Below, piece after piece: positions 1-15,043 of a stretch of DNA of 64,000 bases. The position numbers and the translations under genes are program-made. Source of the stretch: Escherichia coli (GTDB lineage: Bacteria; Pseudomonadota; Gammaproteobacteria; Enterobacterales; Enterobacteriaceae); NCBI RefSeq assembly GCF_002854065.1, contig NZ_CP024147.1; one strand, 5' to 3'. Position 1 is the stretch's first letter. Each line of letters starts with the position of its first letter. The notes beneath the pieces are model-generated. The model was given only the letters and a program-made list of their open reading frames with translations, did not search any database and had not been told where the DNA came from.

Positions 1-629
1 AAAAAGAGCCGCCTGCACAGGCTGCTACACAATGAAAAAAGAATCATTCCACAAGCAAGGCACTTATGAGCAAGGTTAGTTGCCCTGGTGCTAACATAAC
101 GGTTAAGGCGGTAAGAACAAGCCACTAGCGGCTAAACGTTTTCCTTCCGAGTTGACAGTTTCCTGCTTGAGAGCTGCTCGTTTGTTAGCCAGAACAGGTT
201 AACGGATAAAATCAGTATATCCATAATAAATAAATAGTTGTTTAGCATTTATTTAAATAATGCCTTCCGAATAATACGCACTAAAATAATAAACAAGCTA
301 GGACTATCCAGTACTGCTAATTGATAGGCGCTCATGAAAACTGGAGAGATAATTGCTTCTGATTAGCCATCAATGCAATTACATCCTGGTCTGGGGATTC
401 CCGGGGGTTAAGTAGCGTGATTAACCATCATAAATATTGATTGAACTCATTTACCTAAAAAGCGCCATTTTGATAGGCTCGACTTAACTCGTTGACCATT
501 TACAGGATTGTAACGTTGGAAATCTTTTTTTAACCCACTGAAAAGTATCTCTTAAATATTTTTCATACATAAAAATTCATGGTCCGTTCAGTACGGATCC
601 GATTTTGTATGGGTTAAAAAAGGTACGTT

Positions 630-1238
630 ATGAAAGTTACATGGACCGTCACGCCTGTGGGGTATCAGCGCATCGCGAAACGATGCCCTTCATGCAACAT
701 TAAACGGGACTTCACGCCGTCAGGTGCATTTCGGGTTAATTCACAAAAGAAGGTGCTGGACGTGTGGAGTATCTATAAATGCACACACTGTGATTACACC
801 TGGAATATCTCCCTGTTTTCGCGTCTGCACGTCAGCAAAATTGACCGCCAGCTTTATCATCGACTAATGACAAACGATGCCGCCACGGTGCAGCACTTTG
901 CATGTGATATCGCGATGCTGAAGCGGAACAATGCAGAGCTATCGGGTCGGCCTGATTTTCACGTTCAGGAGCGCTGGCCGGTAAGCATCACCGCCCACCA
1001 GCGGGTTCGCGTTAGTGTCAGGATCTCCCGTTCATTTCAGGTAAGTCTGCTGTCGATTTTGAAGCAGCAGCTCATGCTGAGCGCTGGTGAGATTCAGAGA
1101 ATGGTGGAAGCAGGGCATATAAGTGGCGTTACACTGAAGTTGCTTAAATCGAGAAAGCTGAAGGCAGCGGAATATCACTTTCAGCTGACTGCGGAAATGT
1201 TATATGCCCGGCGCAGGATCGTTCTGACGCATCGTTAA
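630..1238 (+). CDS. hypothetical zinc-ribbon protein, DUF1062-like
   Basis: 202-aa ORF. It has two Cys pairs (CPSC, CTHC), and the block FRVNSQKKVLDVWSIYKCTHCDYTWN resembles DUF1062 as I recall that family. Purine-rich aaaaagg lies upstream of the ATG. Confidence 0.55.
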   Translation: MKVTWTVTPVGYQRIAKRCPSCNIKRDFTPSGAFRVNSQKKVLDVWSIYKCTHCDYTWNISLFSRLHVSKIDRQLYHRLMTNDAATVQHFACDIAMLKRNNAELSGRPDFHVQERWPVSITAHQRVRVSVRISRSFQVSLLSILKQQLMLSAGEIQRMVEAGHISGVTLKLLKSRKLKAAEYHFQLTAEMLYARRRIVLTHR

Positions 1239-1244
1239 AATATT

Positions 1245-1330
1245 AAGCTCCCCTGAGGTAATAAACGCCCGTGTGGCAGCGGTTCAACATAATGCCAGAT
1301 AGGCCAGGGATAGGGGAGCTTCAGTTTTTC
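1245..1330 (+). terminator. possible terminator-like long hairpin after the DUF1062-like gene
   Basis: Perfect 10-bp arms AAGCTCCCCT (1245-1254) and AGGGGAGCTT (1312-1321) are followed by CAGTTTTTC. The 57-nt loop is unusually large. Confidence 0.3.
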
Positions 1331-1454
1331 GGCTTCTGAATTGAGAACTTTAGTGAATGGGGTGATAGAGGATATCGCTTGAATTGTGCCGAGTCTAATG
1401 GTGCTTTAAGGATTGGGATATCGGGAAAGGTGTAGCTTAATTGAATGGGTTGTA

Positions 1455-1664
1455 TCAATGACCGCGTGAATCGGCAATGCGTTGCTGTAACCATAATTCG
1501 ACTTCACTTTTCTTCCAGCGGGAGCACCGGCCCAGCTTAATTGGCTTCGGGAACAGTCCGTCTTTTATCAACTTATAGAACCATTTATCCGTCAGCCCCG
1601 TTAGCTTTGTGATGAAGCGCATATCCACCAGTTGGTCATCAAGCAAAGAAATTTGTTCTGTCAT
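1455..1664 (-). CDS. AlpA-family phage/island transcriptional regulator (MerR-like HTH)
   Basis: MTEQISLLDDQLVDMRFITKLTGLTDKWFYKLIKDGLFPKPIKLGRCSRWKKSEVELWL matches the AlpA/prophage regulatory protein pattern. The start was trimmed to the internal Met (M24 of the tracked ORF). Confidence 0.8.
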   Translation of the reverse strand: MTEQISLLDDQLVDMRFITKLTGLTDKWFYKLIKDGLFPKPIKLGRCSRWKKSEVELWLQQRIADSRGH

Positions 1665-1771
1665 GATGCTGTCTTCCATTGTGGGATTATCCTGAGCTGG
1701 TGGTTGATTGCTCGTTACTACCAGCCCTTCCACATCAATGGATTGATACGTAAAAAAGTGCAGAACGTGAG

Positions 1772-2350
1772 TTATAGTGAGCGAGGACGCCCCAGTCCGC
1801 TGGGCGGCGGTACCTCACTGGCTCCGTAGTGATAGTGACCGTGCTTTTGCTCTTCTTTGGCAAGGTAGCTGATGATGTAGCGCAGGTTATCGATGGCTTC
1901 GGTATCATCGTAGTTCACCGGCTTATCAATACTGACGTCATAAGTAGGTTTGTATTCGCAGCGGTTGTAATAGCCTTCTCGTTGCGTTATTTCCCGCCAT
2001 ATTGTTCCGACTCTCTCAGCTATTGGGTAGGTAGCCTGGTTAAGGTGCCTGTCGAGATAGAACACGATATGAGCATGGCAGCCGTGGTCTACAGAGCTCT
2101 CCAGTACCCAGAAATACCCTGCCAGATTTGTGTGCTGCAGGGTGCGTTCAACCAGCATGCGTACCTCTCGCTCTGTTTCGTTCCATGAATGACGTTTAAA
2201 GCGCTCTGTACCTTTCTGATAGAACAGGTCGAGTCGGAGTGCCTGTATTTGGGAATATCGGTTCAGTAGCTGATTCAGGTGGTCATTGAGTAGAGACAGT
2301 AGAAACCAGTTCATCGTGTATCTGGGGTTAAATGGGTAAGGTGTATGCAT
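1772..2350 (-). CDS. YfjJ/YagK-family (inovirus Gp2-like) island protein
   Basis: The body from MHTPYPFNPRYT...LRLDLFY...GYFWVLE...HAHIVFYLD...LRYIISYLAKEEQK resembles the K-12 CP4 prophage YfjJ/YagK paralogs. The start was trimmed to M64 of the tracked ORF. Confidence 0.7.
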   Translation of the reverse strand: MHTPYPFNPRYTMNWFLLSLLNDHLNQLLNRYSQIQALRLDLFYQKGTERFKRHSWNETEREVRMLVERTLQHTNLAGYFWVLESSVDHGCHAHIVFYLDRHLNQATYPIAERVGTIWREITQREGYYNRCEYKPTYDVSIDKPVNYDDTEAIDNLRYIISYLAKEEQKHGHYHYGASEVPPPSGLGRPRSL

Positions 2351-2688
2351 TGATTTATCCTTTGTCAGGTGGAGTACAAAGGATTGGGATGGGATGTAAT
2401 TTTTAAGAGAAGCAGAGATACAGGGAACTGCGTATCCAGGGGAATACAGGCAGGGTTGCTTGTTGGGGAAGGGGCTATGAACAGAGTGGTATAGAAACAG
2501 GGAGTCCCCCTTAATTATACTAAAAACCCAAATGTTCATATCTGCTGTTGAACGATGCTAATGAGGTGAGCACAGGAGGATTGTAGGGTGAAAACAACAG
2601 GAATAATGCAGTAAAATGTCAGGCTTTTATCACAATTAAATCAGTAGGATATCAGTAAAAAATCAGCCATTCCTCAGCCTGTGACCCA

Positions 2689-2750
2689 CCTCCCTCTACC
2701 TAAAAGATGCTCATGCTAATCTGTGTTCAGGAGCCAGAATTAGAGGGAGG
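2689..2750 (+). promoter_or_regulatory. candidate anti-Shine-Dalgarno hairpin in the leader of the 305-aa gene
   Basis: CCTCCCTCTA (2689-2698) is the perfect reverse complement of TAGAGGGAGG (2741-2750). The latter is the SD located 5 nt upstream of the ATG at 2756. Confidence 0.35.
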
Positions 2751-2755
2751 AGACG

Positions 2756-3673
2756 ATGTTGCATTACGATATGATCCGCTATGAAATAATGTACCTAAAA
2801 ACGCTGGACAGGCATTTCAATACAGATCACTCGTTACTGTGCAGTACTTATGATAGGCCCGATGATTTTCGACGCTTGATCTCTCAGATACTTGAACGGC
2901 ATTTTCTTGGCGATCAGGACAGAATCAAAATTGCGCGGAAAACACTTAAAGAATGGGCTGACCTGCAACTGATTGATAAAGAATATTTTGATTGTTTCAA
3001 AGGCACACCAAGAGCATCGTGGTTTGCTCACCATTATATTTTTGAATACCCAGTATTACCTGCAGGGTTGAAACTTGGTGGGTTGGGGAATGACGTCGGT
3101 TGTTCAGGTGGTTTTAATTCTCTTTTAATGAACGATAATATCTTCACAAATCTTGATTTCTCTAATTTGAATATCGACCTGGACGATATAGATTGGGACC
3201 TGATAACAAATCCACAGGCCACTGCTTCGAAAAAAACGAAACGCGTTTTCTCCCGATTTTATCTGAACGCGGGAGCAAGTACCGATCTGTACAACCCCAC
3301 TCCGGTAACTGAGCGTGAACTCATCAATGGTGTGATGAGGTACATTGATGAAGCACCATGCTCACTTGGAGATAAGATCACTTATTTCAAAAAACTGCAT
3401 GAGCGCTGGCTTGAGCAATATGATTTTTTTCTAACAGATTTTGACTGGATGTCACGTGATGATGAAACTCAGTTAGTATATCTCTGGGACTATCTCAAAG
3501 GAAAGGGACGAATAGCGAGCTATCTTCGCCCTTATAATACGTCTATGCGTTATGACATGATTATTGCGGCTATGGATGTGTGGAACGCCCAACCTGAAGA
3601 GAAGCTGGAGTTTATTGAGAAGATGAAACATGCCTGGCAGGCAGCGAAATCTTACCGGAAATCTGCTAAATAG
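2756..3673 (+). CDS. hypothetical protein, 305 aa, no family recognised
   Basis: Strong SD (GAGGGAGGAG) upstream of the ATG. This is the only long ORF in the region. It is AT-rich and has an acidic, low-complexity centre (DFSNLNIDLDDIDWDL). Two similar helical segments occur: KTLKEWADLQLIDKEYFDCF and KKLHERWLEQYDFFLTDF. Confidence 0.7.
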   Translation: MLHYDMIRYEIMYLKTLDRHFNTDHSLLCSTYDRPDDFRRLISQILERHFLGDQDRIKIARKTLKEWADLQLIDKEYFDCFKGTPRASWFAHHYIFEYPVLPAGLKLGGLGNDVGCSGGFNSLLMNDNIFTNLDFSNLNIDLDDIDWDLITNPQATASKKTKRVFSRFYLNAGASTDLYNPTPVTERELINGVMRYIDEAPCSLGDKITYFKKLHERWLEQYDFFLTDFDWMSRDDETQLVYLWDYLKGKGRIASYLRPYNTSMRYDMIIAAMDVWNAQPEEKLEFIEKMKHAWQAAKSYRKSAK

Positions 3674-4035
3674 CGTTGTGATCGCAGTGATGTCTTGGTC
3701 TGATTTCTCAATGTAGTCATGAATCTGAGTCGACCCAGGGTCCTCTAACTATCTTTTCCTTGTCCCGTTAGGTACAAGCACATACTGTTAAAGATTAATA
3801 TGGCGGGGTATGGACGTCGGAGCTATGCCTACCTTTTAGATCGTTTGCTTCTGACTCGAAGCTTACAAGCTAGCTGATCTGAAGGTCCACTGTGAGCGAG
3901 GAGCGGACACCACGACTCACCAATAACTTGCTGCCCGCTTACGACCCAAAACCACCTATTGTATGTTAATTAATCTAGCAAACAAATGTTTAGCTTTTTA
4001 TCCGGCGAATGAAGCAAGAGAAATTGAACCCATTG

Positions 4036-4512
4036 CTAAGTATTACTGGGATTATTAAAAGGGATAATACTGGCCAATCCGTCATCTACATCAAGACCAT
4101 AGGCAACTGCTATTTCTGCCACAGAGGTACCACACTTTTTTCGCAGTTTAAAAAGCGCTCGCTCAAGCATAGATACTTGCACAGGATGATCAAATCGGAT
4201 GAACTGAGGGGAGCCAACACTGTCACCGAATTCTTGGCATGCCTTTCTCATTTTCCTTAATTGATTTGCTAAATATGAATCGCTCGGTAAACCTTGTAGG
4301 ATTTTAGTCAATTCAGATCTAATGCTGATAACACTCTGAATGCAATGACTAGTATCCTCCATATCGACAGGATTGAAAAGAACTCGCTTGTCCTCAAGAA
4401 AAATGACGATCTTCTTCGCTTCGTCAGCTTCTATTATTGGAGCATTCCACTGAATCCCGAATATAGGGCAGCTAAGGCCTGTAATATTTTTATAGATTCG
4501 TTCAAATTTCAA
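4036..4512 (-). CDS. hypothetical protein, 158 aa, no family recognised
   Basis: TTG start preceded by AAGGAG at a 6-nt spacing. It is the longest ORF of the region, is AT-rich, and converges on the 305-aa gene. Confidence 0.6.
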   Translation of the reverse strand: MKFERIYKNITGLSCPIFGIQWNAPIIEADEAKKIVIFLEDKRVLFNPVDMEDTSHCIQSVISIRSELTKILQGLPSDSYLANQLRKMRKACQEFGDSVGSPQFIRFDHPVQVSMLERALFKLRKKCGTSVAEIAVAYGLDVDDGLASIIPFNNPSNT

Positions 4513-4684
4513 AACTCACTCCTTTGATGGACACATAACGCCTATACAGTCATGATGAGAAACGGACTCGGTTCGAGTAATCTGTTAGATAGCATCACTC
4601 GTAACTACTGTAAAAATAGTTGCTATCATGCTTATTGTCACTATAAATATTACTTAATGTCAGTCAGTTAAGAACGATTATTAT

Positions 4685-4721
4685 CCCCCACAATATAAAA
4701 TGTGTGTGGGGGCTATTTTTT
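4685..4721 (+). terminator. intrinsic-terminator-like hairpin with its T-run on the + strand
   Basis: CCCCCACA (4685-4692) pairs with TGTGGGGG (4705-4712) across a 12-nt loop, followed by CTATTTTTT. On the - strand the hairpin is followed only by ATAATAATCG. Confidence 0.5.
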
Positions 4722-4738
4722 CCAAGAGGTAGGCTTCA

Positions 4739-4951
4739 TCAAAGATAAACTACATGAGAAGAACGCCTTAACTTGCTCAAATGGATTGTGTTACAACAGT
4801 CTTGGTAACGTTTGCTATTGGCACATAGCGGGTCTTCAACCCAGTTAGCTCGCCCATTCTGTGCAAGTAGTGGACAATGAATGAAAAGATATTGGGTCGG
4901 ATTAACCTTGCGAAGGCCATCTAAGTCTGTGACGAACATTTCTTCAAGCAT
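4739..4951 (-). CDS. small hypothetical Cys/His-containing protein (70 aa), possibly spurious or a gene remnant
   Basis: ORF lies 134 nt downstream of the helicase gene on the same strand. TGAGGG sits 8 nt upstream of the ATG. Sequence contains HCP...C...CC..H. No family recognised. Confidence 0.3.
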   Translation of the reverse strand: MLEEMFVTDLDGLRKVNPTQYLFIHCPLLAQNGRANWVEDPLCANSKRYQDCCNTIHLSKLRRSSHVVYL

Positions 4952-5085
4952 CTGAGGCCCTCAGCTCGCACCTAGAATTTTAATTTTGATGCATTTTGCC
5001 TTAGCTTGAGCATTGGAATGTGGCCTGATAACCGGTGTTTTCTTTTACTGGCCGTCCACAGACTCGATGACGCATTTATTCCCGA

Positions 5086-6903
5086 CTACCTTAAACCTGC
5101 CCCTCTCATTCGCTCCTCCAGTTCATCCAGAAATGGGGAACGCCCTAGACGCATAGGGCCGTAGCGACCATCAACAAAACCGGAATACAGCATATGCACC
5201 TCGTCCCGTGCGCGGGTCAGCCCCACATAGAAAAGACGTCGGCTTTCACGCAGCTTCTCTGGCGTCTCATTACGCCACGGCAAATTCCCCAGATCTAAGC
5301 CGACCATGATAACCACGTCATATTCGCAACCTTTGGCTGAGTGAAGTGTCAGCAAATTGAGGTGCTCAGGTGAACCGTCACGACCACCTAGGCTCGTGAT
5401 ATCCAACATCGCTAACGCACCGCCTTCGGCAAGTGCTGCAGTCATGCGATCTAGTTGCTCAGCCTGATCAGAAAGCGTTGGTTCAGTTGCCAGCAGGGAA
5501 TCAACGAGACCGTTGCGCAACGACGCGACAAAATCGGATGCAGAATGTTGGTCGGCACGAAGTGCCCAAAGTAGCCTGGTTAACTCCTGCCCCTTACTCC
5601 GGGCGCATGCATCATCCAGCCTTGCCCGATGAAATGCCAGATAACGGTCTATAAGTCCGCGCAGTTGAGGGCGCCCGATACGCCAACCGCCAGCACACCA
5701 TGCTGCGCAATCCTCCACCCAGCTCGTCAAGGCAACTTTGCGATAAGGTGCTGCGGTATCCACACGAATGTAATCAAAACCGCTAGCTGTCACCGCATCG
5801 GCCACAACATCGCCGGCACGGTAGTCCTTGTACAGAATGGCGATATCACCCAGTGTTCGGCCCGGCTTAGCAGCCAACGCAGCAGGAATAATCTGCTCGA
5901 CAGCATAGACAGCCTGATCCCCCAAGCCATCCGGACACAGCTGGAACGCAATGGTTGTCTGGCGGTTTGGGTCGTTTGCGCGATAACCACGAACCTCACC
6001 CAACACCATCTCCGATGCATTCACGATGTCCGCTCCTGATCTATAGTTCAACTGGAGCCGGACTGTTTCAACGTCTCTCCTGCCTGCCAGTTCTAGTAGT
6101 AACGCACCATCGGCACCAGTGAAACCGTAAATAGATTGGTCTGCATCACCCACTGCAAATAAGCGTACGCCTCCCTCGAAAGCCAGACGTTTGACCATAC
6201 GATGGAGTGCCACGCCCAAATCTTGATATTCATCTACCGCAAGGATCGGAAATTTCGCCTGTACTAGGGGCAGAACCCAATCATGCTCAATTATCAGACG
6301 CTGACCAAATATCACCATATCGTCGTAGTCTATCAGCCCTTGCTGCCGCAATGCAGCTTCGTAGGCCTCGGCCCATGCAGCGAGTTCCTCCTCTGTACGC
6401 CAGGCAACGCTGTTGCGATTCAACACCGAACGGCGATGCCGTCCGAGATCAATAGCCTTATAGGGATGGTTTGCGCCAAAGAGACGGTCACCAGATTGTC
6501 GAAGTAACCGTTCGCTCTCGCGCTGAGACGCTACTGACAGCGGAAATGGGATTGGCAGATCGGCCAGTCGCCCATAGGGCATCAACAGATGGCGCAAGCA
6601 GAACCCATGAACGGTTCCAATAAAGAGATTCGGTGCCTCTCTAAGCCCCAGCGCTTCGAGACGACGGGTTAGCTCGCGTGCGCATTCTTGGCTATATGTG
6701 ATACATGCCGCACCACGTGGAGCTTGAACATCCTCAGCTAGGATTCGTGCCAGCTTCAGCACAAGCGTCTTTGTCTTACCACTCCCCGGGCCCGCGAGCA
6801 CCACGCAGTGTCCCTGGGAGTGATACGCGGATAACTGGCCCGGATTCCCGGCCAGCTCGGCAGCCTGAGCTAAGTAGGCTGCACTGACACTACGTGACGG
6901 CAT
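5086..6903 (-). CDS. gajB: UvrD/Rep-family SF1 helicase, GajB-like (Gabija component B)
   Basis: Walker A AGPGSGKTKT, motif II VDEYQD, motif III GDADQSIYGFTGA, LNYRS, LHSAKGCEYD, and VGLTRARDEV. The ATG at 6903 overlaps the end of the upstream OLD-family gene by 14 nt. Confidence 0.85.
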   Translation of the reverse strand: MPSRSVSAAYLAQAAELAGNPGQLSAYHSQGHCVVLAGPGSGKTKTLVLKLARILAEDVQAPRGAACITYSQECARELTRRLEALGLREAPNLFIGTVHGFCLRHLLMPYGRLADLPIPFPLSVASQRESERLLRQSGDRLFGANHPYKAIDLGRHRRSVLNRNSVAWRTEEELAAWAEAYEAALRQQGLIDYDDMVIFGQRLIIEHDWVLPLVQAKFPILAVDEYQDLGVALHRMVKRLAFEGGVRLFAVGDADQSIYGFTGADGALLLELAGRRDVETVRLQLNYRSGADIVNASEMVLGEVRGYRANDPNRQTTIAFQLCPDGLGDQAVYAVEQIIPAALAAKPGRTLGDIAILYKDYRAGDVVADAVTASGFDYIRVDTAAPYRKVALTSWVEDCAAWCAGGWRIGRPQLRGLIDRYLAFHRARLDDACARSKGQELTRLLWALRADQHSASDFVASLRNGLVDSLLATEPTLSDQAEQLDRMTAALAEGGALAMLDITSLGGRDGSPEHLNLLTLHSAKGCEYDVVIMVGLDLGNLPWRNETPEKLRESRRLFYVGLTRARDEVHMLYSGFVDGRYGPMRLGRSPFLDELEERMRGAGLR

Positions 6904-8674
6904 CGCAGATATACTCCAGTGCTTCACGAATGTAATCCGGGCATACATCCTCCGACACCGAGGGTGCCAGCGCTTGGGCGAACCGCCCTTTGCCAATTCG
7001 CTCAATCAGTTTCAACAACCGGACATTATCAAGCTGGTCCGTGTCATCCACCCACGCCTGTATCCTGTTCAGAGTAGCTCGTCTAGGAGACAATTCCTGC
7101 TCGATAACCAACTTCATGGCTTCGCCCAGTCCACCGGTAAACAGCTCTGGCTCCAGAGTGGTCTCATTGACGAAGCATCCAAAATCTCCGGCACGTGCAA
7201 TCACCTCCTCGGTAGTCATATCATCATGATCAACATCGCTCTCAAGCACGTCTAAGATATTGATAAATCTCTTACGAACCAGCGGCTCTCCATCCTCCTC
7301 AGGATCGCGGTCTGTCAGAATCACATGTGGAATATTGAGTCCCCGCGGCCCTAGGAGCTTCACATACGGAGTGAAATTTGTTCCACCGATCGAGCACACC
7401 GTGATCCCAAGCATATCTAGGGGAATATTAAGAGCATCAGCGAATGCTGGGACAAGAAAGCGTTCAGCATCCCCTTCCACCAAGATCACCCCACGTGAAA
7501 AGAATATTTCGCCGCGAGTGACATCGATATAGCGCTGCAGATCATCTTCGTCCCGCGGCGTAAACGGTGCGTTTGCCGTTGAAACCGCAATCGTCTTCCC
7601 TCCCTCCGGATCATGGCGCAGCAAAACGATGGATCTGATTGGTGTGACGCTGGCGATATGCGGGGAATGGGTGGTCAGGATCGTTGTCAACGGTGTTCCT
7701 TCATCACCATTGTCTCCGTCAGTCCCTAGGAAATAACGGTAAACCAGGCGCTGTACGTGCGGATGTAGGTGCGCTTCCGGCTCCTCGACTACGAAAAACG
7801 TATGGTCTCGTTCTCCGTCATTAACAAGACGATCAAGTTCGAGGCTTTTTAGGGCAAGAAAAATCAGATTAGCTGTCCCCAGACTGGCATCGCCAATGCC
7901 ACGAATGCCACTATCAAGCAGCAAACGCAGGCTACGTAGCAGCGCATCAACGCGAGTCGGTGCAAGTCCGAGCGATACCGGAACGGCATGTTGCTCACCT
8001 GCGATAGCTATCAACCTTTCGCTAATTCGTTCGGCTGTCGCTGCCACCTCATCATGATCAGCCAGTTCCCGTTGAGCCTCATCAACTTGGGTTTGAATCT
8101 CCTCACGAGTCTCGTCGTCCAGAGATGCGGACAGTTCTTCAATAAGCGGTCTTAAGGGTGAATTACGCCAGCTTGAAAGGTCCTTCTCGGCATCACGCAA
8201 CGCGCCTTGAACATCAATGGGCAACATACGGCGAAAGGCACCACCAATATGCATGTCAGGATCAGCTCCACCGAAGATCACATACTCATAATCTTTTAAC
8301 GATTCAGGAGCTCGATTTAACGCGGTTTTGGGCTGAAAGCGGTAGGTAAGACGGGCCACCATCGGAGGCCCCGGATTTAGGACACAGTCATTCAGATGAG
8401 CCATCAATCGGGGATCGTCAGTGAACTCAGTAAGATCCACTGAAATTTCGATGGTCTCCCCCAGTTTGTCTTCGCCCAATCCATCCCAAAAATGTTCAAA
8501 ACCCAGTTGACGGTCACGCTCAGACAACCCTGGGTCAAGAATCAGCTGCAGGCCGCGAATAAAATTGCTCTTGCCAACCTTGTTTTCACCAACAATAACA
8601 ATACTCTCACCCGTTTCAACATCAACATCGGAGAAGTTGGCGAAATTAATTAACCGGATTCGGGAAATCCGCAT
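6890..8674 (-). CDS. gajA: OLD-family ATPase + TOPRIM nuclease, GajA-like (Gabija component A)
   Basis: N-terminal Walker A GENKVGKSN and Walker B/D-loop FFVVEEPEAHLHP. C-terminal TOPRIM signature VILVEGDAERF plus ILTDRDPEED. AGGGAGG SD is present. It is paired with a UvrD-like helicase, as in class 2 OLD/Gabija loci. Confidence 0.85.
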   Translation of the reverse strand: MRISRIRLINFANFSDVDVETGESIVIVGENKVGKSNFIRGLQLILDPGLSERDRQLGFEHFWDGLGEDKLGETIEISVDLTEFTDDPRLMAHLNDCVLNPGPPMVARLTYRFQPKTALNRAPESLKDYEYVIFGGADPDMHIGGAFRRMLPIDVQGALRDAEKDLSSWRNSPLRPLIEELSASLDDETREEIQTQVDEAQRELADHDEVAATAERISERLIAIAGEQHAVPVSLGLAPTRVDALLRSLRLLLDSGIRGIGDASLGTANLIFLALKSLELDRLVNDGERDHTFFVVEEPEAHLHPHVQRLVYRYFLGTDGDNGDEGTPLTTILTTHSPHIASVTPIRSIVLLRHDPEGGKTIAVSTANAPFTPRDEDDLQRYIDVTRGEIFFSRGVILVEGDAERFLVPAFADALNIPLDMLGITVCSIGGTNFTPYVKLLGPRGLNIPHVILTDRDPEEDGEPLVRKRFINILDVLESDVDHDDMTTEEVIARAGDFGCFVNETTLEPELFTGGLGEAMKLVIEQELSPRRATLNRIQAWVDDTDQLDNVRLLKLIERIGKGRFAQALAPSVSEDVCPDYIREALEYICDAVT

Positions 8675-9173
8675 TACTGCCTCCCTATCTTTTTAATTAT
8701 CTTCCCAAAATAAGAGTAGAACTCAAACCACAAGAGACTGCCTGGCACGACCAAATTTGCTGAGGGATACGGTTGCGATCAGAACGGTACTTGGTCATTG
8801 CACATTTTTTACTGTTCAAATCTATGCGTCCAACGAAGGTAACAACCTATCGTAACAGAGAGCTAAAACATGCCTATGATCCATCTCACATAGTGGCTGT
8901 TTGTCGTCACAGTCTTACAATGCACTCTGTGCAATGCATTACTCCCATTGGCCGACCAGACCGATGAACTGGCACGGCGGTGTGCTTCACACACTCTAGC
9001 GATACGGCACAATATCAACAGACACTGACTGGCCTCGTCAAAATAGTACAGTACAGACTTAGCACCGTCTGACTTTGGCGCTAAGCGGAGATCTTTCAGT
9101 CTTGGACTGCACAAAGTCCTTTGCGTTAATCTAAAATTCCAAATAATTTCAGACAGATATTATCTCATTGAAT

Positions 9174-9210
9174 CCCCGCCTTCCTGACTGGATCGCGGGG
9201 TTTTTAATTT
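9174..9210 (+). terminator. intrinsic-terminator-like hairpin immediately upstream of the GTPase gene
   Basis: CCCCGC (9174-9179) pairs with GCGGGG (9195-9200) across a 15-nt loop, followed by TTTTTAATTTTT. It ends 20 nt before the ATG at 9230. Confidence 0.5.
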
Positions 9211-9229
9211 TTCACGCTGAGACTTCTGT

Positions 9230-10105
9230 ATGAATAAACCTGACGGCCTTCAGGCCTTTGAACAACCGCTTGCGTCGCTTCCGTGCACACTTCGCCAGCT
9301 TATTCTTGAACGTATCCAGAACCTGACCCATTACGAGCCGGTGATTGGAATCATGGGCAAAAGTGGTACAGGTAAATCCTCTCTCTGCAACGAACTTTTC
9401 CGGGGCGAGGTGTCCCCGGTGAGTGACGTGAATGCCTGTACTCGCGACGTGCTGCGTTTCCGGTTACGCAGTGGGCGTCACAGCCTGGTGATTGTTGATT
9501 TACCGGGCGTGGGCGAAAACGGGCAGCGGGATCAAGAATACCGTGCCCTGTACCGTCGAATCCTGCCGGAGCTGGACCTGGTGCTGTGGGTCATTAAGGC
9601 CGATGATCGGGCACTAACCGTGGACGAGCAGTTCTGGCACGGTGTGATGCAAACTTACAGGCAAAAGGTACTGTTCGTGATTAACCAGGCCGACAAAATC
9701 GAACCCTGCCATGAATGGGATACCCTCACCAGCAAACCTTCACCGCACCAACTGGGAAATCTTAAAGCGAAGCAGGCTGCGATTATGGTGATGTTTAAAC
9801 CGCATCATCCGGTCTGTGTGGTGTCAGCCCGCACTGGATGGGGCATTGAGGAGATGGTGGCAGCCATGATGCGCTGTCTGCCTGACCGCGCCACCAGCCC
9901 GGTGGTGACACAACTGCACAGGAAACTCTGCACAGAGCCGGTAAAGTCGCAGGCTCGTGACAGTTTCGGTGAAGCTGTGGGCCGGGTTTTCGATACCGCA
10001 GAATCATCTTCGTTCCTGTCTACATCGCTGAAAACGGTGATTCGTAGCGTGCGTGATGCGGTGGTGTCGGTCGCACGGGCCGTCTGGGACTGGATATTCT
10101 TCTGA
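9230..10105 (+). CDS. YeeP/YfjP/YkfA-family GTPase (CP4-type island)
   Basis: G1 GKSGTGKSS, G3 DLPGVGE and G4 NQADK motifs. Overall resemblance to the K-12 prophage GTPases YfjP/YkfA. Confidence 0.85.
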   Translation: MNKPDGLQAFEQPLASLPCTLRQLILERIQNLTHYEPVIGIMGKSGTGKSSLCNELFRGEVSPVSDVNACTRDVLRFRLRSGRHSLVIVDLPGVGENGQRDQEYRALYRRILPELDLVLWVIKADDRALTVDEQFWHGVMQTYRQKVLFVINQADKIEPCHEWDTLTSKPSPHQLGNLKAKQAAIMVMFKPHHPVCVVSARTGWGIEEMVAAMMRCLPDRATSPVVTQLHRKLCTEPVKSQARDSFGEAVGRVFDTAESSSFLSTSLKTVIRSVRDAVVSVARAVWDWIFF

Positions 10106-10348
10106 TATCGCAATTTTCTCTGCGAATGATGAACTTGTTGTTAATGATGTGTTGATTGTGGACACGTCCTTTCCATTGCGTTTTATCATCAACAAAATCA
10201 GGAGAAGCATCATTATCTGTCAGACGAGCGCTCACAAGGCCGGGCTGCTCATAAAAAATAGTTCCGATGTTGTCCATACCCTGTCCACCCCTTCCTTTAA
10301 AGTAATCATTATTAATTCAGAGAGTTAACTTCTCAGGAGAAATCTTTC

Positions 10349-11065
10349 ATGACGCTTCAGGAGCGGCGACATGACCGGCTTGCCGTCAGGTTGTCGTTGA
10401 TTATCAGCCGCCTGGTGTCCGGTGAAACTCTGTTTATTCGCAAACTGGCAACTGAATTCGGGGTGTCAGAGCGCACGTTACGTCGTGACTTTCGGGAACG
10501 TCTGATGTATCTCGACCTGGATTATTACCAGGGGCAGTGCAGTCTGCGCTCGGATATTCACAGTACGCGGCAGGAAATAGATATTCTGACCTTTGCTCAC
10601 CGTACGGGGCTGGCCGGGGTTTTCCCGGGCTTTGACCGGCGACTGGTCAGCAGCCTGCTGGACTGTGATGATCGACCCTGTCTGGTATGGCATCAGGACA
10701 GACCTCATCCCCCGGCAGGAAAGCTCTCCTTCTACAGGCTGGTCAGAGCTATTTCTGAATGTCAGCGCATCACCATTCTGACTGAAGGGGAGCGTCATGA
10801 GGCCGTTGCACCTTACCGGCTAATCGCTCTGGACGGTTACTGGTATCTGGTCGCTGAACATAACAGGCAATTACGTGTCTTCCGGCTGGATGAGATTCAT
10901 CTGGTAAGGCCATCGCGGGAAACATTTATTCGCAGTGAGCTTCTCTATCAGCTGTCGGAGGATAAACATTTTATCTCTGCCTTACCTCATTTCCGTTTTA
11001 TTCAGCAGTCGCTGAATTCATTTTCTCCCTCAGAAAGTCGGGGGCAATCCGGACAAACTGATTAG
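10349..11065 (+). CDS. HTH + WYL-domain transcriptional regulator (YfjR-like)
   Basis: N-terminal HTH ([19 protein letters not shown]). C-terminal WYL-like core ([28 protein letters not shown]). Confidence 0.8.
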
Positions 11066-11100
11066 AGATGGTCTCCATAATTAAATGTAAGGTTAATCTA

Positions 11101-11553
11101 ATGAAAGAATTGAAATTGTTGTCTTTACTGCCAGTCATATTGTTCCCCTTACTTATCGCAGGTAATGCTCACGCAGCACGTCCTTATAGCGGATTCCTGC
11201 CTGCAGCAGTGAATAATAAGAGTGGGAATATATTCTGGTGTGATGCCCACCGCCAGGTCAGAAAACTGTGTACAGCGACGGAAGTGGATTCAATGGGATG
11301 GTTTATTGTTGTTCGCTCGAAACCTTCCAGAGATTGTCCGGGGGGCCTTTGGGGGTGGATCACTCCCAGTAAAGACGATGTAGCAACAGGGTATACCATT
11401 ACGCCAGGTAAAGAATTCAATCTCACCATGAAGGATATGTGCAGTCCCGATATGAAAGTAACGTTCCGCCCGAATAAAAAGGACCCTCGTTATGACGATC
11501 TCGTCGGGATTTATGCAGGGAAAGAAGCTTTTCGCTACAAACAAATAAAATAA
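11101..11553 (+). CDS. small exported protein (signal peptide), island-encoded
   Basis: MKELKLLSLLPVILFPLLIAGNAHA signal-peptide-like N-terminus. The start was trimmed to M12 of the tracked ORF. Confidence 0.55.
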   Translation: MKELKLLSLLPVILFPLLIAGNAHAARPYSGFLPAAVNNKSGNIFWCDAHRQVRKLCTATEVDSMGWFIVVRSKPSRDCPGGLWGWITPSKDDVATGYTITPGKEFNLTMKDMCSPDMKVTFRPNKKDPRYDDLVGIYAGKEAFRYKQIK

Positions 11554-11624
11554 TCCAACTGTTTTTTCGTTACTTTATTGTTTTAAACAACAAAAGCCTT
11601 ATTACATGATTTGAGGACAACATT

Positions 11625-12098
11625 ATGCGACTGCCTTACGTAATATTTACATTAGCTATGCTGGCTTCTGTATCAACAGCACAGGCTATTCCCAATATGT
11701 GGACGAGTGGTTTTGGGATGGGCGTGACCGAATATATTATTACCAGCCCGGAGAAGGTGGTGTTTAATCTGAACTGTACTGGCAATCCGGATGCGCAGAA
11801 TATTCTGCAACACGGTGTTGATCTCACCCTGCCTGATGGAACATCAGTAAGCTCTCATGACGACGGAACGGAAATCACGGTCGTCATGGATAACAGTCAG
11901 TATCCGTTACCGTCATTCCTCGGCTGGCGAAACGGTGACAATGCCTGGGTGTCATTTATTGACGCCCTGAGCCAGTCTGCGAATTTTGATGTTTACGTCA
12001 ACGATAAAAAAGTCGGCACCTTCAGTCCGGGGCTGAAGAATACGCAGAAAGAGCTGTCTGACCTCAGTGAGTGCCGGACCACACACTACAGCGATTAG
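11625..12098 (+). CDS. small exported protein (signal peptide), island-encoded
   Basis: MRLPYVIFTLAMLASVSTAQA signal-peptide-like N-terminus. GAGGA lies upstream of the ATG. Confidence 0.55.
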   Translation: MRLPYVIFTLAMLASVSTAQAIPNMWTSGFGMGVTEYIITSPEKVVFNLNCTGNPDAQNILQHGVDLTLPDGTSVSSHDDGTEITVVMDNSQYPLPSFLGWRNGDNAWVSFIDALSQSANFDVYVNDKKVGTFSPGLKNTQKELSDLSECRTTHYSD

Positions 12099-12152
12099 TT
12101 ACTTACATTTCAGACCTCTCCAGCCCGCTACGCACCAACACCAGATAGCAAC

Positions 12153-12190
12153 AGGCCATGCTCCTTCGGGAACATGGCCTTTTTTGTTTT
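12153..12190 (+). terminator. rho-independent terminator
   Basis: AGGCCATG...CATGGCCT stem with a TTCG-containing loop, followed by TTTTTTGTTTTT. Confidence 0.6.
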
Positions 12191-12218
12191 TATTTGATTA
12201 TCAGATAAGGAGTTAGCT

Positions 12219-13040
12219 ATGCGACTAGCCAGCCGCTTTGGCCGTATAAACCAGATACGCCGTGACCGGCCTCTGACCCACGAAGAGCTGATGAGTCATG
12301 TACCCAGCGTGTTCGGGAGTGACAAGCATGAATCTCGTTCAGACAGGTACACCTACATCCCGACCATCACCATCCTCGAAAGCCTGCAGCGGGAAGGCTT
12401 TGAGCCGTTCTTTGCCTGCCAGACAAAAGTTCGCGACCAGAGCAAGCGGGAGCACACCAAGCACATGCTTCGACTGCGTCGCTCCGGGCAACTGACCGGG
12501 CATCAGGTGCCGGAAATCATTCTACTTAACAGCCATGACGGCTCATCAAGCTACCAGATGCTGCCGGGCCTGTTTCGTGGCGTCTGTACCAACGGCCTGG
12601 TCTGCGGTCAGTCATTCGGAGAAGTGCGGGTACCGCATAAAGGGAATGTTGTCGAGAAGGTGATTGAAGGGGCTTACGAAGTGCTCGGTGTGTTTGACCG
12701 GGTGGAGGAGAAGCGCGATGCAATGCAGTCACTGGCACTGCCAGAACCAGCCCGTAACGCCCTGGCGAATGCCGCGCTGAAGTATCGCTTTGGTGAAGAC
12801 CACCAGCCGGTCACGGTATCGCAGTTGCTGACCCCACGTCGCCGGGAGGACTACAGCGATGACCTGTGGACCGTATACCAGCGCGTGCAGGAGAACCTGA
12901 TGAAAGGAGGTCTGTCAGGGCGAACCGCTCAGGGGAAAAGCAGCCGCACCCGTGCTGTTATCGGCATTGACGGCGATGTGAAACTCAATCGCGCCCTGTG
13001 GATTATGGCAGAAAACATGCTCGAATTTTTCGGGCGTTAA
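12219..13040 (+). CDS. DUF932 protein (YfjQ/YafZ family)
   Basis: 273 aa. Near-collinear similarity to K-12 YafZ/YfjQ as recalled (ERYTYIPTITILE, HTKHMLRLRR, PEIILLNSHDGSSSYQM, FGEVRVPHKG). Confidence 0.85.
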   Translation: MRLASRFGRINQIRRDRPLTHEELMSHVPSVFGSDKHESRSDRYTYIPTITILESLQREGFEPFFACQTKVRDQSKREHTKHMLRLRRSGQLTGHQVPEIILLNSHDGSSSYQMLPGLFRGVCTNGLVCGQSFGEVRVPHKGNVVEKVIEGAYEVLGVFDRVEEKRDAMQSLALPEPARNALANAALKYRFGEDHQPVTVSQLLTPRRREDYSDDLWTVYQRVQENLMKGGLSGRTAQGKSSRTRAVIGIDGDVKLNRALWIMAENMLEFFGR

Positions 13041-13070
13041 ACAACCGTTCCGGCATAAGGAGATAGTTTA

Positions 13071-13511
13071 ATGGATACCCACAACCCTGAGTTTGCTGAG
13101 CAGGCAGCAATTACTGCCTCGGTAGTCCCTGACGAGTTACGTATCGGCTTCTGGCCAAAGCGCTTTGGATCTATCCCACAATGGATAACCCTTGAGCCCC
13201 AAATATTTGGCTGGATGGATCGTCTGTGCGCTGATTACAGCGGCGGCGCCTGGAGCTTTTACACACTCAGCAACGGCGGCGCATTTATGGCTCCGGAGCC
13301 CGACGGTGAGAAGTGGACGTTGTTCAACCCGATGAATGGAAACGATGCGGAGATGAGCGGAGAGGCTGCCGGTATAGCGGCCTGCCTGATGGCATACAGC
13401 CACCACGCTTGTCGCACCGAATGTGACGCGATGACTGAGCACTATTATCGCTTACGTGACTACGCGCTAAACCATCCGGAATGCAGCGCCATTATGTATC
13501 TAATCGACTGA
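13071..13511 (+). CDS. antirestriction protein (YfjX/YafX/KlcA-like family)
   Basis: FWPKRFGSIPQWITLEPQIFGWMDRLCADYSGGAWSFYTLSNGGAFMAPEPD matches the CP4 prophage antirestriction paralogs. Confidence 0.8.
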   Translation: MDTHNPEFAEQAAITASVVPDELRIGFWPKRFGSIPQWITLEPQIFGWMDRLCADYSGGAWSFYTLSNGGAFMAPEPDGEKWTLFNPMNGNDAEMSGEAAGIAACLMAYSHHACRTECDAMTEHYYRLRDYALNHPECSAIMYLID

Positions 13512-13523
13512 GGAATACCTGAC

Positions 13524-14066
13524 ATGAATATCGCATTATCCCCGGTATCATCGCAGCCTGAACTCTTTCCGCTGGCGGTTATGGCCCAGCATAGTTGCCT
13601 GCTCCCCGCGACCTCCGGATTGACACCTTATGCCCAACGGACCATTCGACGTGCTATCAACCTGCTGGATAAATATCTGCGCCAGCCCGGCATGTCCTTT
13701 ACCTCAAGCACGGCTGCCCGTGACTGGCTTCGGTTACAGCTGGCAGGACAAGAACGGGAAGTGTTTATGGTGCTCTATCTCGATAACCAGCACCGTTTAC
13801 TGGAGAGTGAAACGCTATTTGCCGGTTCGGTTAACCATGTCCAGGTCCATCCCCGTGAGGTGGTGAAGTCAGCGCTTCGCTTCAATGCTGCTGCTGTTGT
13901 GCTGGCGCATAACCATCCATCCGGTGATCCGGAGCCCAGCCAATGTGACCGCAACATTACGGGCAGGCTTAAAGAAGCGCTGGCACTGGTTGATGTGAAC
14001 ACTCTCGATCATCTGGTTATCGGTTCAGATGGAATTGTGTCGTTTGCAGAGCGAGGCTGGATATGA
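13524..14066 (+). CDS. RadC-like JAB/MPN domain protein (YkfG/YfjY/YeeS family)
   Basis: JAMM motif HNHPSGDPEPS. Overall similarity to YkfG. The true start may be the internal Met at 13581. Confidence 0.8.
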   Translation: MNIALSPVSSQPELFPLAVMAQHSCLLPATSGLTPYAQRTIRRAINLLDKYLRQPGMSFTSSTAARDWLRLQLAGQEREVFMVLYLDNQHRLLESETLFAGSVNHVQVHPREVVKSALRFNAAAVVLAHNHPSGDPEPSQCDRNITGRLKEALALVDVNTLDHLVIGSDGIVSFAERGWI

Positions 14067-14076
14067 GGGCACTTCA

Positions 14077-14418
14077 ATGAAATCTACTGACTCAGAGAAC
14101 GATTCATTTCTCAAGTGGGGTCTGAATCGTAATGTGACACCTTGCTTTGGCGCTCGTCTGGTACAGGAGGGAAACCGGCTGCACTATCTGGCTGACCGGG
14201 CCAGTATCACCGGTAAGTTCAGCGAAGCAGAATGTCTTAAGCTGGATATGGCATTCCCGCATTTTATTAGCCAGATGGAATCGATGCTGACTACTGGTGA
14301 AATGAATCCTCGCCATGCCCACTGTGTCACCCTGTACCACAATGGTTTCACCTGCGAAGCCGATACCCTTGGCAGTTGCGGCTACGTATACATCGCCGTT
14401 TACTCCACCCATCGTTAA
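14077..14418 (+). CDS. CbeA/YfjZ/YafW-family type IV antitoxin
   Basis: [29 protein letters not shown]...[33 protein letters not shown] parallels K-12 CbeA (YeeU). The start was trimmed to M17 of the tracked ORF. Confidence 0.85.
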
Positions 14419-14438
14419 CTACTTTCACAAGAGCAAAT

Positions 14439-14780
14439 ATGAAAACTCTACCTGCAACAAATCCGCAGGCGGCGAAGCTATGTCTGTCGCCCGTGGCTGT
14501 CTGGCAAATGCTGCTTGCACGCCTGCTGGAACAACATTATGGCCTGACACTCAACGACACGCCATTCAGTGATGAAACGGTAATTCAGCAACATATCGAT
14601 GCCGGTATATCTTTGGCCGATGCCGTTAATTTTCTGGTGGAAAAGTACGGGCTGGTTCGTATTGATCGCAGGGGATTCGACTGGCAAGAACAGTCCCCAT
14701 ATCTGCGGGCAGTCGATATTCTGCGGGCGCGACAGGCAACTGGTTTATTGAAAAGAAATCGTATTAGCGCGGCACGGTGA
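14439..14780 (+). CDS. CbtA/YkfI/YpjF-family toxin
   Basis: [46 protein letters not shown]... matches the CbtA family. It lies directly downstream of the antitoxin gene. Confidence 0.85.
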
Positions 14781-14845
14781 ATATTGGGAATAGCCTTCCT
14801 GATTCACACTGCAGCTTTCCTTACTTATTTAATTTACTCATTCCA

Positions 14846-14880
14846 AAAAGCACCTGCCGATGCTGGTTGGTGCTTTTACT
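14846..14880 (+). terminator. rho-independent terminator after the toxin gene
   Basis: AAAAGCACC (14846-14854) pairs with GGTGCTTTT (14869-14877), followed by a T-rich tail. Confidence 0.5.
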
Positions 14881-15043
14881 TATATGGACGAAATATCATG
14901 CAAATAGAAGCTGTAATTTTAACTGGGCACATTATCGCAAGTACAATCCGGGAATGCTGGGCCGTCGTTGTTGATGGTTTTGACGCATGCGGCGAACAAG
15001 CTTATGATCCAGCTTAATTTCTTTTCCTCATGAAGGGACGGGT

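What the first reader, a model, noticed from the sequence alone, without database searches (positions are those of the whole stretch)
5086..8674. Gabija-type gajA-gajB operon as a GC-richer cassette in the island cargo slot
A 594-aa protein combines an ABC/OLD-type ATPase (GENKVGKSN, VVEEPEAHLHP) with a C-terminal TOPRIM domain (VEGDAERF, TDRDPEED). It is followed by a 605-aa SF1 helicase carrying all the UvrD/Rep motifs. The two genes overlap by 14 nt (stop at 6890-6892, ATG at 6901-6903), which implies translational coupling. This pairing defines class 2 OLD/Gabija systems. The helicase is about 100 aa longer than the Bacillus GajB as I recall it. The cassette is visibly more GC-rich than both flanks.
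Basis: partly seen in the sequence, partly recalled or inferred. Interest (0 to 1): 0.5.

Follow-up and report, generated by a model that had tools for sequence, protein, structure and literature searches.

The report
Intact Gabija defence operon in E. coli island
This is an ordinary, intact two-gene Gabija anti-phage system (an OLD-type nuclease plus a UvrD-like helicase) carried as mobile cargo in an E. coli genomic island; it belongs to a subfamily whose nuclease has been crystallised but which has not, as far as I found, been tested against phages.

Summary
On the minus strand, gajA (6890-8674, 594 aa) and gajB (5086-6903, 605 aa) overlap by 14 nt. PADLOC gives full-length GajA (776 bits) and GajB (790 bits) matches. 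Pfam gives AAA_15 + OLD-like TOPRIM and UvrD-helicase + UvrD_C. All catalytic residues defined for class 2 OLD nucleases are present at the numbering of Burkholderia pseudomallei (Bp) OLD, and all SF1 helicase motifs are present.

The GajA C-terminal region is 75% identical to the crystallised Xanthomonas campestris (Xcc) class 2 OLD. It is only distantly related to B. cereus GajA.

The window is E. coli chromosome. The cassette (4988-8916) sits beside the GTPase gene of a CP4-57-like island, where K-12 carries AbpAB and RnlAB. It also occurs in a thrW island and in an ICE. It is rare: 20 of 5,426 complete E. coli genomes.

Relatives at 75-100% identity, nearly all with the same 14-nt overlap, occur across Proteobacteria and beyond.

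The GC claim is only partly right: 53% against 41-45% in the immediate flanks, but 50% in the island backbone.

The extra 111 aa in GajB is normal for this subfamily, which looks more UvrD-like than Bacillus GajB.

Verdict: a known kind of system, low interest.

The parts
6890..8674 (-). gajA: class 2 OLD-family nuclease, 594 aa. The N-terminal ABC-type ATPase spans aa 1 to about 373. The C-terminal Toprim plus helical domain spans aa 374-594.
   Evidence: PADLOC GajA PDLC00070, 776 bits, aa 1-593 of a 596-position model. Pfam AAA_15 and OLD-like_TOPRIM. Aa 374-593 match the Xcc class 2 OLD C-terminal region 6NJV (E 3e-104, 75% identity) and Bp 6NK8 (62% identity). Residues K35, H336, E400, E404, D455, D457, T506, E508 and K562 are present.
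5086..6903 (-). gajB: UvrD/PcrA/Rep-like SF1A helicase, 605 aa
   Evidence: PADLOC GajB PDLC00117, 790 bits, aa 5-600 of a 604-position model. Pfam UvrD-helicase and UvrD_C. Motifs found: AGPGSGKT 37-44, TYSQECA 69-75, DEYQD 224-228, GDADQSIY 252-259, LNYRS 285-289, TLHSAKG 519-525, VGLTRAR 560-566. It aligns end to end with E. coli UvrD residues 1-640.
6890..6903 (-). 14-nt overlap between the gajA stop and the gajB start; inferred translational coupling
   Evidence: Read directly from the sequence. The same overlap geometry is seen in nearly all related loci from other species that hold both genes.
8675..8916 (-). Non-coding leader that travels with the cassette: RBS AGGGAGG at 8681-8687 and a presumed promoter or regulatory region
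   Evidence: DNA homology with independent insertions in an E. coli ICE and in Pantoea ends sharply at 8910-8916; in Pectobacterium it ends at 8872. The RBS was read from the sequence. No strong sigma-70 consensus was found on the minus strand here, so the promoter is inferred, not shown.
4988..5085 (-). 3' non-coding tail that travels with the cassette
   Evidence: The left homology border is at 4988 in two unrelated contexts. No convincing intrinsic terminator: the fold z-score is +1.35 and the scan found no terminator-like site there.

Best explanation
This is a complete, apparently functional Gabija (class 2 OLD) anti-phage system of the Xanthomonas/Burkholderia-type subfamily, carried as a 3.9-kb self-contained cassette (4988-8916) in the variable cargo region of a CP4-57-like E. 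coli island.

Shown:
- The two genes are intact and co-oriented, and overlap by 14 nt.
- GajA has an ABC ATPase (Walker A K35, Walker B E297/E298, H-loop H336).
- GajA has a Toprim plus helical nuclease domain with the full two-metal site: E400, D455 and D457 for metal A; E404, T506 and E508 for metal B; and K562.
- GajB has all SF1A motor motifs.

Inferred from characterised relatives:
- The two proteins are made in coupled fashion and assemble into a GajA-GajB complex (4:4 in B. cereus).
- The complex attacks invading DNA. GajA nicks or degrades it by two-metal catalysis, and GajB supplies ATP-driven DNA translocation or unwinding.
- By analogy with P. aeruginosa Gabija, the most likely target is linear phage DNA ends that are not occupied by RecBCD.
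- By analogy with Bp and Xcc OLD, the nuclease is likely non-specific and little affected by ATP. B. cereus GajA, in contrast, is a sequence-specific nickase inhibited by NTPs.
For: Family assignment. Close structural relatives with defined catalytic residues. Operon architecture is conserved in nearly all of 69 loci across Alpha-, Beta- and Gammaproteobacteria and several other phyla, with 75-100% protein identity, which indicates strong purifying selection and horizontal spread. The cassette occurs in three different E. coli mobile contexts with sharp common borders. It sits next to other defence genes: Hachiman in L003; an HNH endonuclease, a cytosine methyltransferase and a restriction endonuclease in L002; and AbpAB and RnlAB at the same position in K-12 CP4-57. 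Distribution is patchy: 20 of 5,426 E. coli genomes, with copies 99.7-100% identical in six of them. Mechanistic analogies: PMC6755086, PMC10568477, PMC12407980, PMC10681800.
Against: No experiment bears on this locus or, as far as I found, on anti-phage activity of this subfamily; the review table lists the phages targeted by Bp OLD as unknown. Sequence identity to the Gabija systems tested in vivo is low: B. cereus GajA matches at E 1e-11 over aa 292-459 only, the enterobacterial plasmid type is about 26% identical, and PA14 GajB has DESQ where this one has DEYQD. No clear promoter or terminator was found. The two published activation models disagree with each other: nucleotide depletion with abortive infection, or RecBCD-free DNA ends without abortive infection.
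Confidence: 0.88

Rival explanations
1. It belongs to another OLD-class system (retron-associated class 3, PARIS AriA-like, or Septu PtuA-like) that merely sits next to a helicase.
For: Weak partial NCBIfam hits to the retron Eco8 effector (44 bits) and PtuA (26 bits) reflect the shared ABC and Toprim core.
Against: Those hits are far below their cut-offs of 250 and 500 bits. The 25 best PADLOC families listed are all GajA, and the best match is full length. No reverse transcriptase or AriB/PtuB-like partner is present, and Rfam finds no ncRNA. The helicase partner with the same overlap is conserved in nearly all relatives.
Confidence: 0.02
2. It is a DNA-repair or recombination nuclease-helicase pair, or an element-maintenance and inter-element competition module serving the island, rather than an anti-phage system.
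For: GajB is strongly UvrD/PcrA-like: 133 bits to PcrA and an end-to-end alignment with UvrD. The cassette travels on ICEs and islands. P. aeruginosa Gabija also restricts plasmid and transduced DNA.
Against: The distribution is patchy and horizontally acquired, not core. The cassette sits among defence genes in defence cargo slots. Every Gabija tested so far defends against phage.
Confidence: 0.07
3. It is a silent or decaying remnant in a degraded island. In this window the island is not followed by an integrase.
For: The island backbone looks like a cryptic CP4-type remnant. No strong promoter consensus was found. [quoted passage not shown]
Against: Both ORFs are full length relative to their HMMs, and all catalytic residues are intact. 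The proteins are identical in K. pneumoniae ATCC 13883, and the DNA is 99.7-100% identical in six E. coli genomes. The 240-bp leader is conserved with the cassette.
Confidence: 0.05

Closest known systems
Class 2 OLD nucleases of Xanthomonas campestris pv. campestris and Burkholderia pseudomallei (PDB 6NJV, 6NK8; Schiltz et al. 2019, PMC6755086) with their downstream UvrD-like helicase genes
   Same: Same subfamily. The C-terminal region aa 374-593 is 75% (Xcc) and 62% (Bp) identical. The catalytic residues E400, E404, D455, D457, T506, E508 and K562 fall at identical numbering. The overlapping helicase gene downstream matches the class 2 layout that paper describes as frequent. A Xanthomonas citri GajB homologue is 84% identical.
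   Different: The host and element differ: here it is E. coli island cargo. Those proteins were studied only in vitro, as non-specific nickases and 5'-3' exonucleases that are ATP-insensitive; no phage phenotype is known for them or for this locus.
Bacillus cereus VD045 Gabija (GajA/GajB; PDB 8SM3, 8J4T, 8TK0)
   Same: Same two-gene architecture and domain order. GajA residues match: Walker A K35, H-loop H320 = H336 here, Toprim E379/E383 = E400/E404, D432/D434 = D455/D457, and E513 = E508. GajB is an SF1A-like ATPase.
   Different: Sequence similarity is only distant (E 1e-11 for GajA, 1e-13 for GajB). Bc D511 is replaced by T506, as in Bp. GajB here is 111 aa longer. It keeps the N-terminal Q-motif region, a GIG-like motif (P412-x-x-R415-G416-L-I-D-R420, with P412, R415, G416 and R420 invariant in the subfamily) and a pin-like GRYGP segment that aligns with the UvrD pin region. 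BcGajB is reported to lack the gating helix, GIG motif and separation pin and to have no helicase activity (PMC10681800).
Pseudomonas aeruginosa PA14 Gabija on PAPI-1 (Hong et al. 2025 preprint, PMC12407980)
   Same: A Gram-negative, element-borne gajA-gajB operon. It offers the most applicable in vivo model: non-abortive, and it blocks circularisation of linear DNA not loaded with RecBCD.
   Different: Probably another subtype: motif II of GajB is DESQ there and DEYQD here. I could not obtain the PA14 sequences to measure identity.
E. coli conjugative-plasmid Gabija that co-occurs with tmn (Wu et al., bioRxiv 10.1101/2022.08.21.504612)
   Same: A Gabija from E. coli shown to protect against phages such as lambda. 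GajA K35 and an H-loop histidine are required.
   Different: Presumably a different subtype. I did not obtain that plasmid system's sequence. The best enterobacterial plasmid GajA-like hits are only about 26% identical, and the window's subtype is absent from true plasmid records.

Membership tests
Gabija / class 2 OLD system | GajA: N-terminal ABC-type ATPase fused to a C-terminal Toprim nuclease domain | tested here: met
   Pfam AAA_15 (81 bits) and OLD-like_TOPRIM (70 bits). PADLOC GajA full length, 776 bits.
Gabija / class 2 OLD system | A UvrD/PcrA/Rep-like SF1 helicase gene immediately downstream, often overlapping | tested here: met
   gajB starts 14 nt before the gajA stop. Pfam UvrD-helicase and UvrD_C. 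PADLOC GajB full length, 790 bits. The adjacency is conserved in nearly all of 69 related loci.
Gabija / class 2 OLD system | Class 2 catalytic set: Toprim E, DxD, second acidic pair, T/E of helix alpha1H, and a catalytic lysine (Bp E400, E404, D455, D457, T506, E508, K562) | tested here: met
   All seven residues are present at the same positions.
Gabija / class 2 OLD system | Helical insert in the Toprim region that distinguishes class 2 from class 1 | tested here: met
   Aa 374-593 align without large gaps to the Xcc and Bp crystallised regions, which comprise the Toprim and helical domains. The class 1 Thermus OLD matches only through aa 458.
Gabija / class 2 OLD system | Intact ATPase motifs in GajA (Walker A Lys, Walker B Glu, H-loop His) and in GajB (motifs I, II, III, V, VI) | tested here: met
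   GajA K35, E297/E298 and H336. GajB G38-T44, D224-E225, GDADQSIY, TLHSAKG and VGLTRAR.
Gabija / class 2 OLD system | GajA-GajB hetero-oligomer (4:4 in B. cereus) | not testable with these tools
   No complex prediction is available. The single-chain AF2 model of GajB was poor (pLDDT 59.8).
Gabija / class 2 OLD system | Protection against phage that requires both genes | not testable with these tools
   This needs plaque assays. No report was found for this subfamily.
Retron-associated (class 3) OLD / Septu PtuA / PARIS AriA | Match to the family model above its cut-off, and the cognate partner (RT plus ncRNA, PtuB, or AriB) adjacent | tested here: not met
   Retron Eco8 effector 44 bits against 250; PtuA 26 bits against 500. 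No such partners appear among neighbouring ORFs. Rfam finds nothing.
Housekeeping UvrD/Rep/PcrA helicase | Score above the NCBIfam equivalog cut-offs; core-genome gene | tested here: not met
   PcrA 179 bits against 911; UvrD 157 against 1144; Rep 158 against 951. The gene is present in only 20 of 5,426 E. coli genomes, and it lacks the UvrD C-terminal 80 aa.

The most novel reading that the evidence does not exclude
The Xcc/Bp-type Gabija subfamily represented here may work differently from the B. cereus paradigm. Its GajB keeps UvrD elements that BcGajB has lost: the Q-motif N-terminus, a GIG-like duplex-binding motif, and a pin-like hairpin. It could therefore be a true helicase that feeds DNA to an ATP-insensitive, non-specific GajA exonuclease. 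That would make it a RecBCD-like processive degrader of unprotected linear DNA, rather than a nucleotide-sensing site-specific nickase. A branch of the same subfamily has also recruited a third gene, an Mrr-like nuclease.
Probability: 0.3. Interest if true: 0.4.

Novelty: already known. Interest (0 to 1): 0.15.

Why it matters
It adds little beyond annotation. RefSeq labels the two genes only as 'ATP-dependent nuclease' and 'ATP-dependent helicase', so calling them Gabija improves the map of this strain's defence repertoire. It also documents a CP4-57-type cargo slot being used for Gabija. The wider point is modest. This subfamily is extremely conserved and widely transferred: 75-100% protein identity from enterics to Alphaproteobacteria and beyond. 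It has crystal structures and in vitro nuclease data but no phage phenotype. Its helicase also looks more UvrD-like than the Bacillus model. An E. coli-native copy would therefore be a convenient system in which to test the competing activation models for Gabija.

Tried and rejected
1. AlphaFold2 of GajB, using 44 homologues at 75-94% identity, gave a poor model (mean pLDDT 59.8, pTM 0.41). I ran no fold search on it because the matches would be meaningless. The homologue search lists only the 120 closest proteins, so I could not build a deeper alignment.
2. A search of phage records for the cassette found no match.
3. A search of plasmid records found only distant GajA-like genes. The one 92% hit is a 5.4-Mb record, evidently a chromosome.
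4. Rfam and repeat scans of 3600-9400 found no RNA family. Only short repeats at chance level appeared, apart from one 14-nt inverted pair noted separately.
5. Promoter and terminator scans found no convincing minus-strand promoter upstream of gajA and no terminator after gajB.
6. I tested whether the DUF6650 gene or the 70-aa ORF downstream of gajB belongs to the system. The cassette borders in other contexts exclude both, and neither matches the third gene seen in other clades.
7. I tested whether the 'restriction endonuclease' downstream of gajB in L002 is that third gene. There is no similarity.
8. I could not retrieve B. cereus GajB or the PA14 Gabija sequences for full pairwise alignment. 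Only the partial PDB alignments were available.
Full report
**Observation**

The region 5086-8674 holds two long minus-strand ORFs.
- gajA is 6890-8674, with an ATG start, and encodes 594 aa.
- gajB runs from the ATG at 6903-6901 to the stop at 5086-5088 and encodes 605 aa.

The mechanical ORF list extends gajB upstream to a TTG at 7005. RefSeq annotation of identical DNA and the N-termini of homologues (MPSRSVS...) support the ATG. The gajA stop TAG is at 6892-6890, so the genes overlap by 14 nt. gajA is preceded by AGGGAGG 6 nt upstream of its ATG.

**Identity**

PADLOC matches both proteins over their full length:
- protein 1 to GajA model PDLC00070 (776 bits, E 6e-234);
- protein 2 to GajB model PDLC00117 (790 bits, aa 5-600 of 604 positions).

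A truncated GajB model, PDLC00108, scores 856 bits. The 25 best families listed for protein 1 are all GajA, and 24 of the 25 for protein 2 are GajB. Pfam gives AAA_15 plus OLD-like_TOPRIM for the first protein and UvrD-helicase plus UvrD_C for the second.

NCBIfam has no model that either protein passes. The retron Eco8 effector (44 bits against a cut-off of 250) and PtuA (26 against 500) are far below threshold. So are PcrA, UvrD and Rep (157-179 bits against cut-offs of 911-1144).

**Relation to solved structures**

The C-terminal region of GajA (aa 374-593) matches two crystallised class 2 OLD catalytic regions:
- Xanthomonas campestris pv. campestris (Xcc), PDB 6NJV: E 3e-104, 165 of 221 residues identical (75%);
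- Burkholderia pseudomallei (Bp), PDB 6NK8: 136 of 220 identical (62%).

Schiltz et al. 2019 (PMC6755086) define the Bp two-metal site as follows:
- metal A: E400, D455 and D457;
- metal B: E404, T506 and E508;
- a catalytic lysine, K562.

All seven residues occur in the window protein at the same numbers.

B. cereus VD045 GajA is only a distant relative (E 1e-11). The alignable blocks still show the correspondences below.

| B. cereus GajA | Window GajA |
|---|---|
| K35 | K35 |
| H320 | H336 |
| E379 / E383 | E400 / E404 |
| D432 / D434 | D455 / D457 |
| E513 | E508 |
| D511 | T506 |

**The helicase**

GajB matches PcrA, Rep and UvrD best (123-133 bits). B. cereus GajB matches only over aa 216-307 (54 bits). 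All SF1A motifs are present.

A MAFFT alignment of the subfamily with E. coli UvrD runs end to end over UvrD residues 1-640.
- The window protein lacks only the UvrD C-terminal extension and about 45 residues of the 2B region.
- The UvrD GIG motif (T-P-T-R-G-I-G-D-R) aligns with R-P-Q-L-R-G-L-I-D-R. P412, Q413, R415, G416 and R420 are invariant among 44 subfamily members.
- The UvrD pin region (RRLYGKE) aligns with GRYGPMR.

Oh et al. [quoted passage not shown] The extra 111 aa therefore reflect a more UvrD-like subfamily, not an anomaly. PADLOC GajB models commonly have 565-637 positions. This rests on sequence alignment only, because my AlphaFold2 model was too poor to use (pLDDT 59.8).

**Genomic context**

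The window is E. coli chromosome.
- Positions 1-16232 are 99.9% identical to strain 744.
- Downstream lie a truncated nanS, then nanM, nanC, fimB and the fim operon.
- To the right of the cassette runs a backbone of GTPase, HTH regulator, DUF932, antirestriction protein, RadC, YeeU antitoxin and CbtA toxin. This matches the right half of K-12 CP4-57, from yfjP and yfjQ through lfgA, lfgB, yfjZ and ypjF.
- In CP4-57, the segment just upstream of the GTPase gene yfjP holds the AbpAB defence system and the RnlAB toxin-antitoxin pair.
- In a second E. coli island at thrW (L002), the same position holds an HNH endonuclease, a cytosine methyltransferase, an AAA ATPase pair, a restriction endonuclease and this same gajAB cassette.

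This supports the 'cargo slot' reading.

**A self-contained mobile cassette**

The cassette also occurs in an ICE next to Hachiman, near a tRNA-Asn gene (L003, 92.6% identity), and in Pantoea (L006). In both cases homology stops sharply at window 4988 and 8910-8916. So the unit consists of the two genes, about 240 bp of leader and about 100 bp of tail. The borders carry no terminal inverted repeats.

Hochhauser et al. 2023 already describe Gabija among the alternative cargos of an E. coli ICE slot (PMC10121019).

This subtype is rare in E. coli. It is found in 20 of 5,426 complete genomes, always on the chromosome. It is absent from phage records and from true plasmid records.

**Wider distribution**

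A scan of one genome per species found 69 loci with GajA at 75-100% identity (one at 61%). They come from Enterobacterales, Pseudomonas, Beta- and Alphaproteobacteria, and from MAGs labelled Gemmatimonadota, Acidobacteria, Actinomycetota and Lentisphaeria. K. pneumoniae ATCC 13883 has identical proteins and shares 12.6 kb of the island at 97%.

In nearly all loci that hold both genes, gajB follows with the same overlap geometry. Identical protein identities recur in different genera, which points to recent transfer.

Cassette GC varies by host group:
- 53-54% in most enterics;
- about 57% in Pseudomonas and Betaproteobacteria, where the flanks are about 65%;
- 61-66% in the Alphaproteobacteria and related loci.

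The cassette therefore does not match its hosts on either side.

**The GC claim**

The cassette is 53.1% GC. The comparisons are as follows:
- 40.7% and 44.5% in the adjacent non-coding stretches;
- 43.7% for window 1-5085;
- 50.2% for window 8675-16051;
- 49.1% for the whole window.

Backbone genes reach 55-58%. The contrast is real locally but modest.

**Mechanism**

The following is shown by the sequence:
- intact ORFs;
- intact catalytic and motor residues;
- a conserved overlap;
- a mobile, defence-associated context.

The following is inferred from relatives:
- coupled synthesis of the two proteins;
- assembly into a GajA-GajB complex (4:4 in B. cereus; PMC10781630, PMC10822852; abstracts listed);
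- metal-dependent cleavage of invading DNA by the Toprim domain;
- regulation by the ABC ATPase;
- ATP-driven translocation or unwinding by GajB.

Two activation models exist. One is release of NTP inhibition when phage depletes nucleotides, followed by abortive infection, as proposed for B. cereus (PMC8136825; summaries). The other is a non-abortive attack on linear DNA ends not loaded with RecBCD, as proposed for P. aeruginosa PA14 (PMC12407980).

The nearest biochemically studied relatives are Bp and Xcc OLD. They are non-specific nickases and 5'-3' exonucleases that are insensitive to ATP, and Bp OLD hydrolyses ATP. Because GajB here also looks UvrD-like, I favour a DNA-end-directed, processive nuclease-helicase mode for this subfamily. 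The confidence for that particular step is only about 0.3-0.4.

**Novelty and verdict**

This is a textbook Gabija locus that current defence-finder HMMs recognise at full length. Its subfamily is already represented in the PDB. It is a known kind of system and of low interest. The only open points are the absence of any phage phenotype for this subfamily and the possibility that it works differently from the Bacillus model.

Noticed in passing
L029:8745-9659 (+); also L031, L032, L034-L037, L039, L041, L043, L044, L046, L047, L049-L054, L056, L058, L062, L063, L066, L069: In about 26 of the 69 related loci, mostly Alphaproteobacteria, a conserved 301-305-aa gene starts 10-15 nt after the gajB stop. 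Its C-terminal half matches Pfam Mrr_cat (29 bits), so it is a PD-(D/E)xK nuclease. This looks like a three-gene Gabija variant. The gene is absent from the window.
   Followed up: partly
window 4036-4512 (-) and 2756-3673 (+): A DUF6650 protein (158 aa) and a 305-aa protein with no Pfam or PADLOC match lie in the same cargo segment, between the YfjJ-like gene and Gabija. Both lie within the 12.6 kb that K. pneumoniae ATCC 13883 shares with the window (DUF6650 protein 98.7% identical). They fall outside the cassette borders. Their function is unknown; they may be further defence cargo.
   Followed up: partly
window 15044-16051 (+): A 335-aa gene annotated 'restriction endonuclease', just after the CbtA toxin gene, matches the PADLOC candidate system PDC-S02 over its full length (272 bits).
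   Followed up: no
window 4922-4935 and 8904-8917: A 14-nt inverted repeat (TAAGTCTGTGACGA / TCGTCACAGTCTTA, one mismatch) brackets the cassette. The right arm coincides with the right homology border at 8910-8916. The left arm lies 53 nt outside the left border. It may be chance, since ten pairs of similar length occur in 5.8 kb, or it may be a recombination scar.
   Followed up: partly
window 4739-4951 (-): An unannotated 70-aa ORF lies in the AT-rich 570-bp gap downstream of gajB, followed by a CCCCCACA...TGTGGGGG hairpin near 4690-4720. It has no Pfam match. It is partly conserved in the thrW island (L002) but not in the ICE context.
   Followed up: partly
window about 16232 onward; L001:27734-33000: The window and strain 744 diverge at 16232. 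Strain 744 continues with a tyrosine integrase, IS1 and a Hachiman-like pair (HamA C-terminal domain protein plus DEAD/DEAH helicase). The window, judging from the near-identical strain VTB96935v (L004), continues with a fragment of a phosphorothioate-dependent restriction endonuclease gene, an HNH endonuclease gene (17015-17665) and a truncated nanS. This junction is another variable defence site.
   Followed up: no
L008, L009, L010; L011, L012, L013, L068; L019, L020, L021, L055, L065: Groups of loci from different genera show exactly the same GajA and GajB identities to the query, for example Azonexus, Achromobacter and a MAG, or Marinobacter, Stutzerimonas, P. putida and a Sphingomonadaceae MAG. 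Where flanks were measured, flank GC within a group is also nearly the same. A 221-aa ORF upstream of gajA recurs in 18 loci; I did not characterise it. This suggests very recent transfer of the cassette on a shared element.
   Followed up: no
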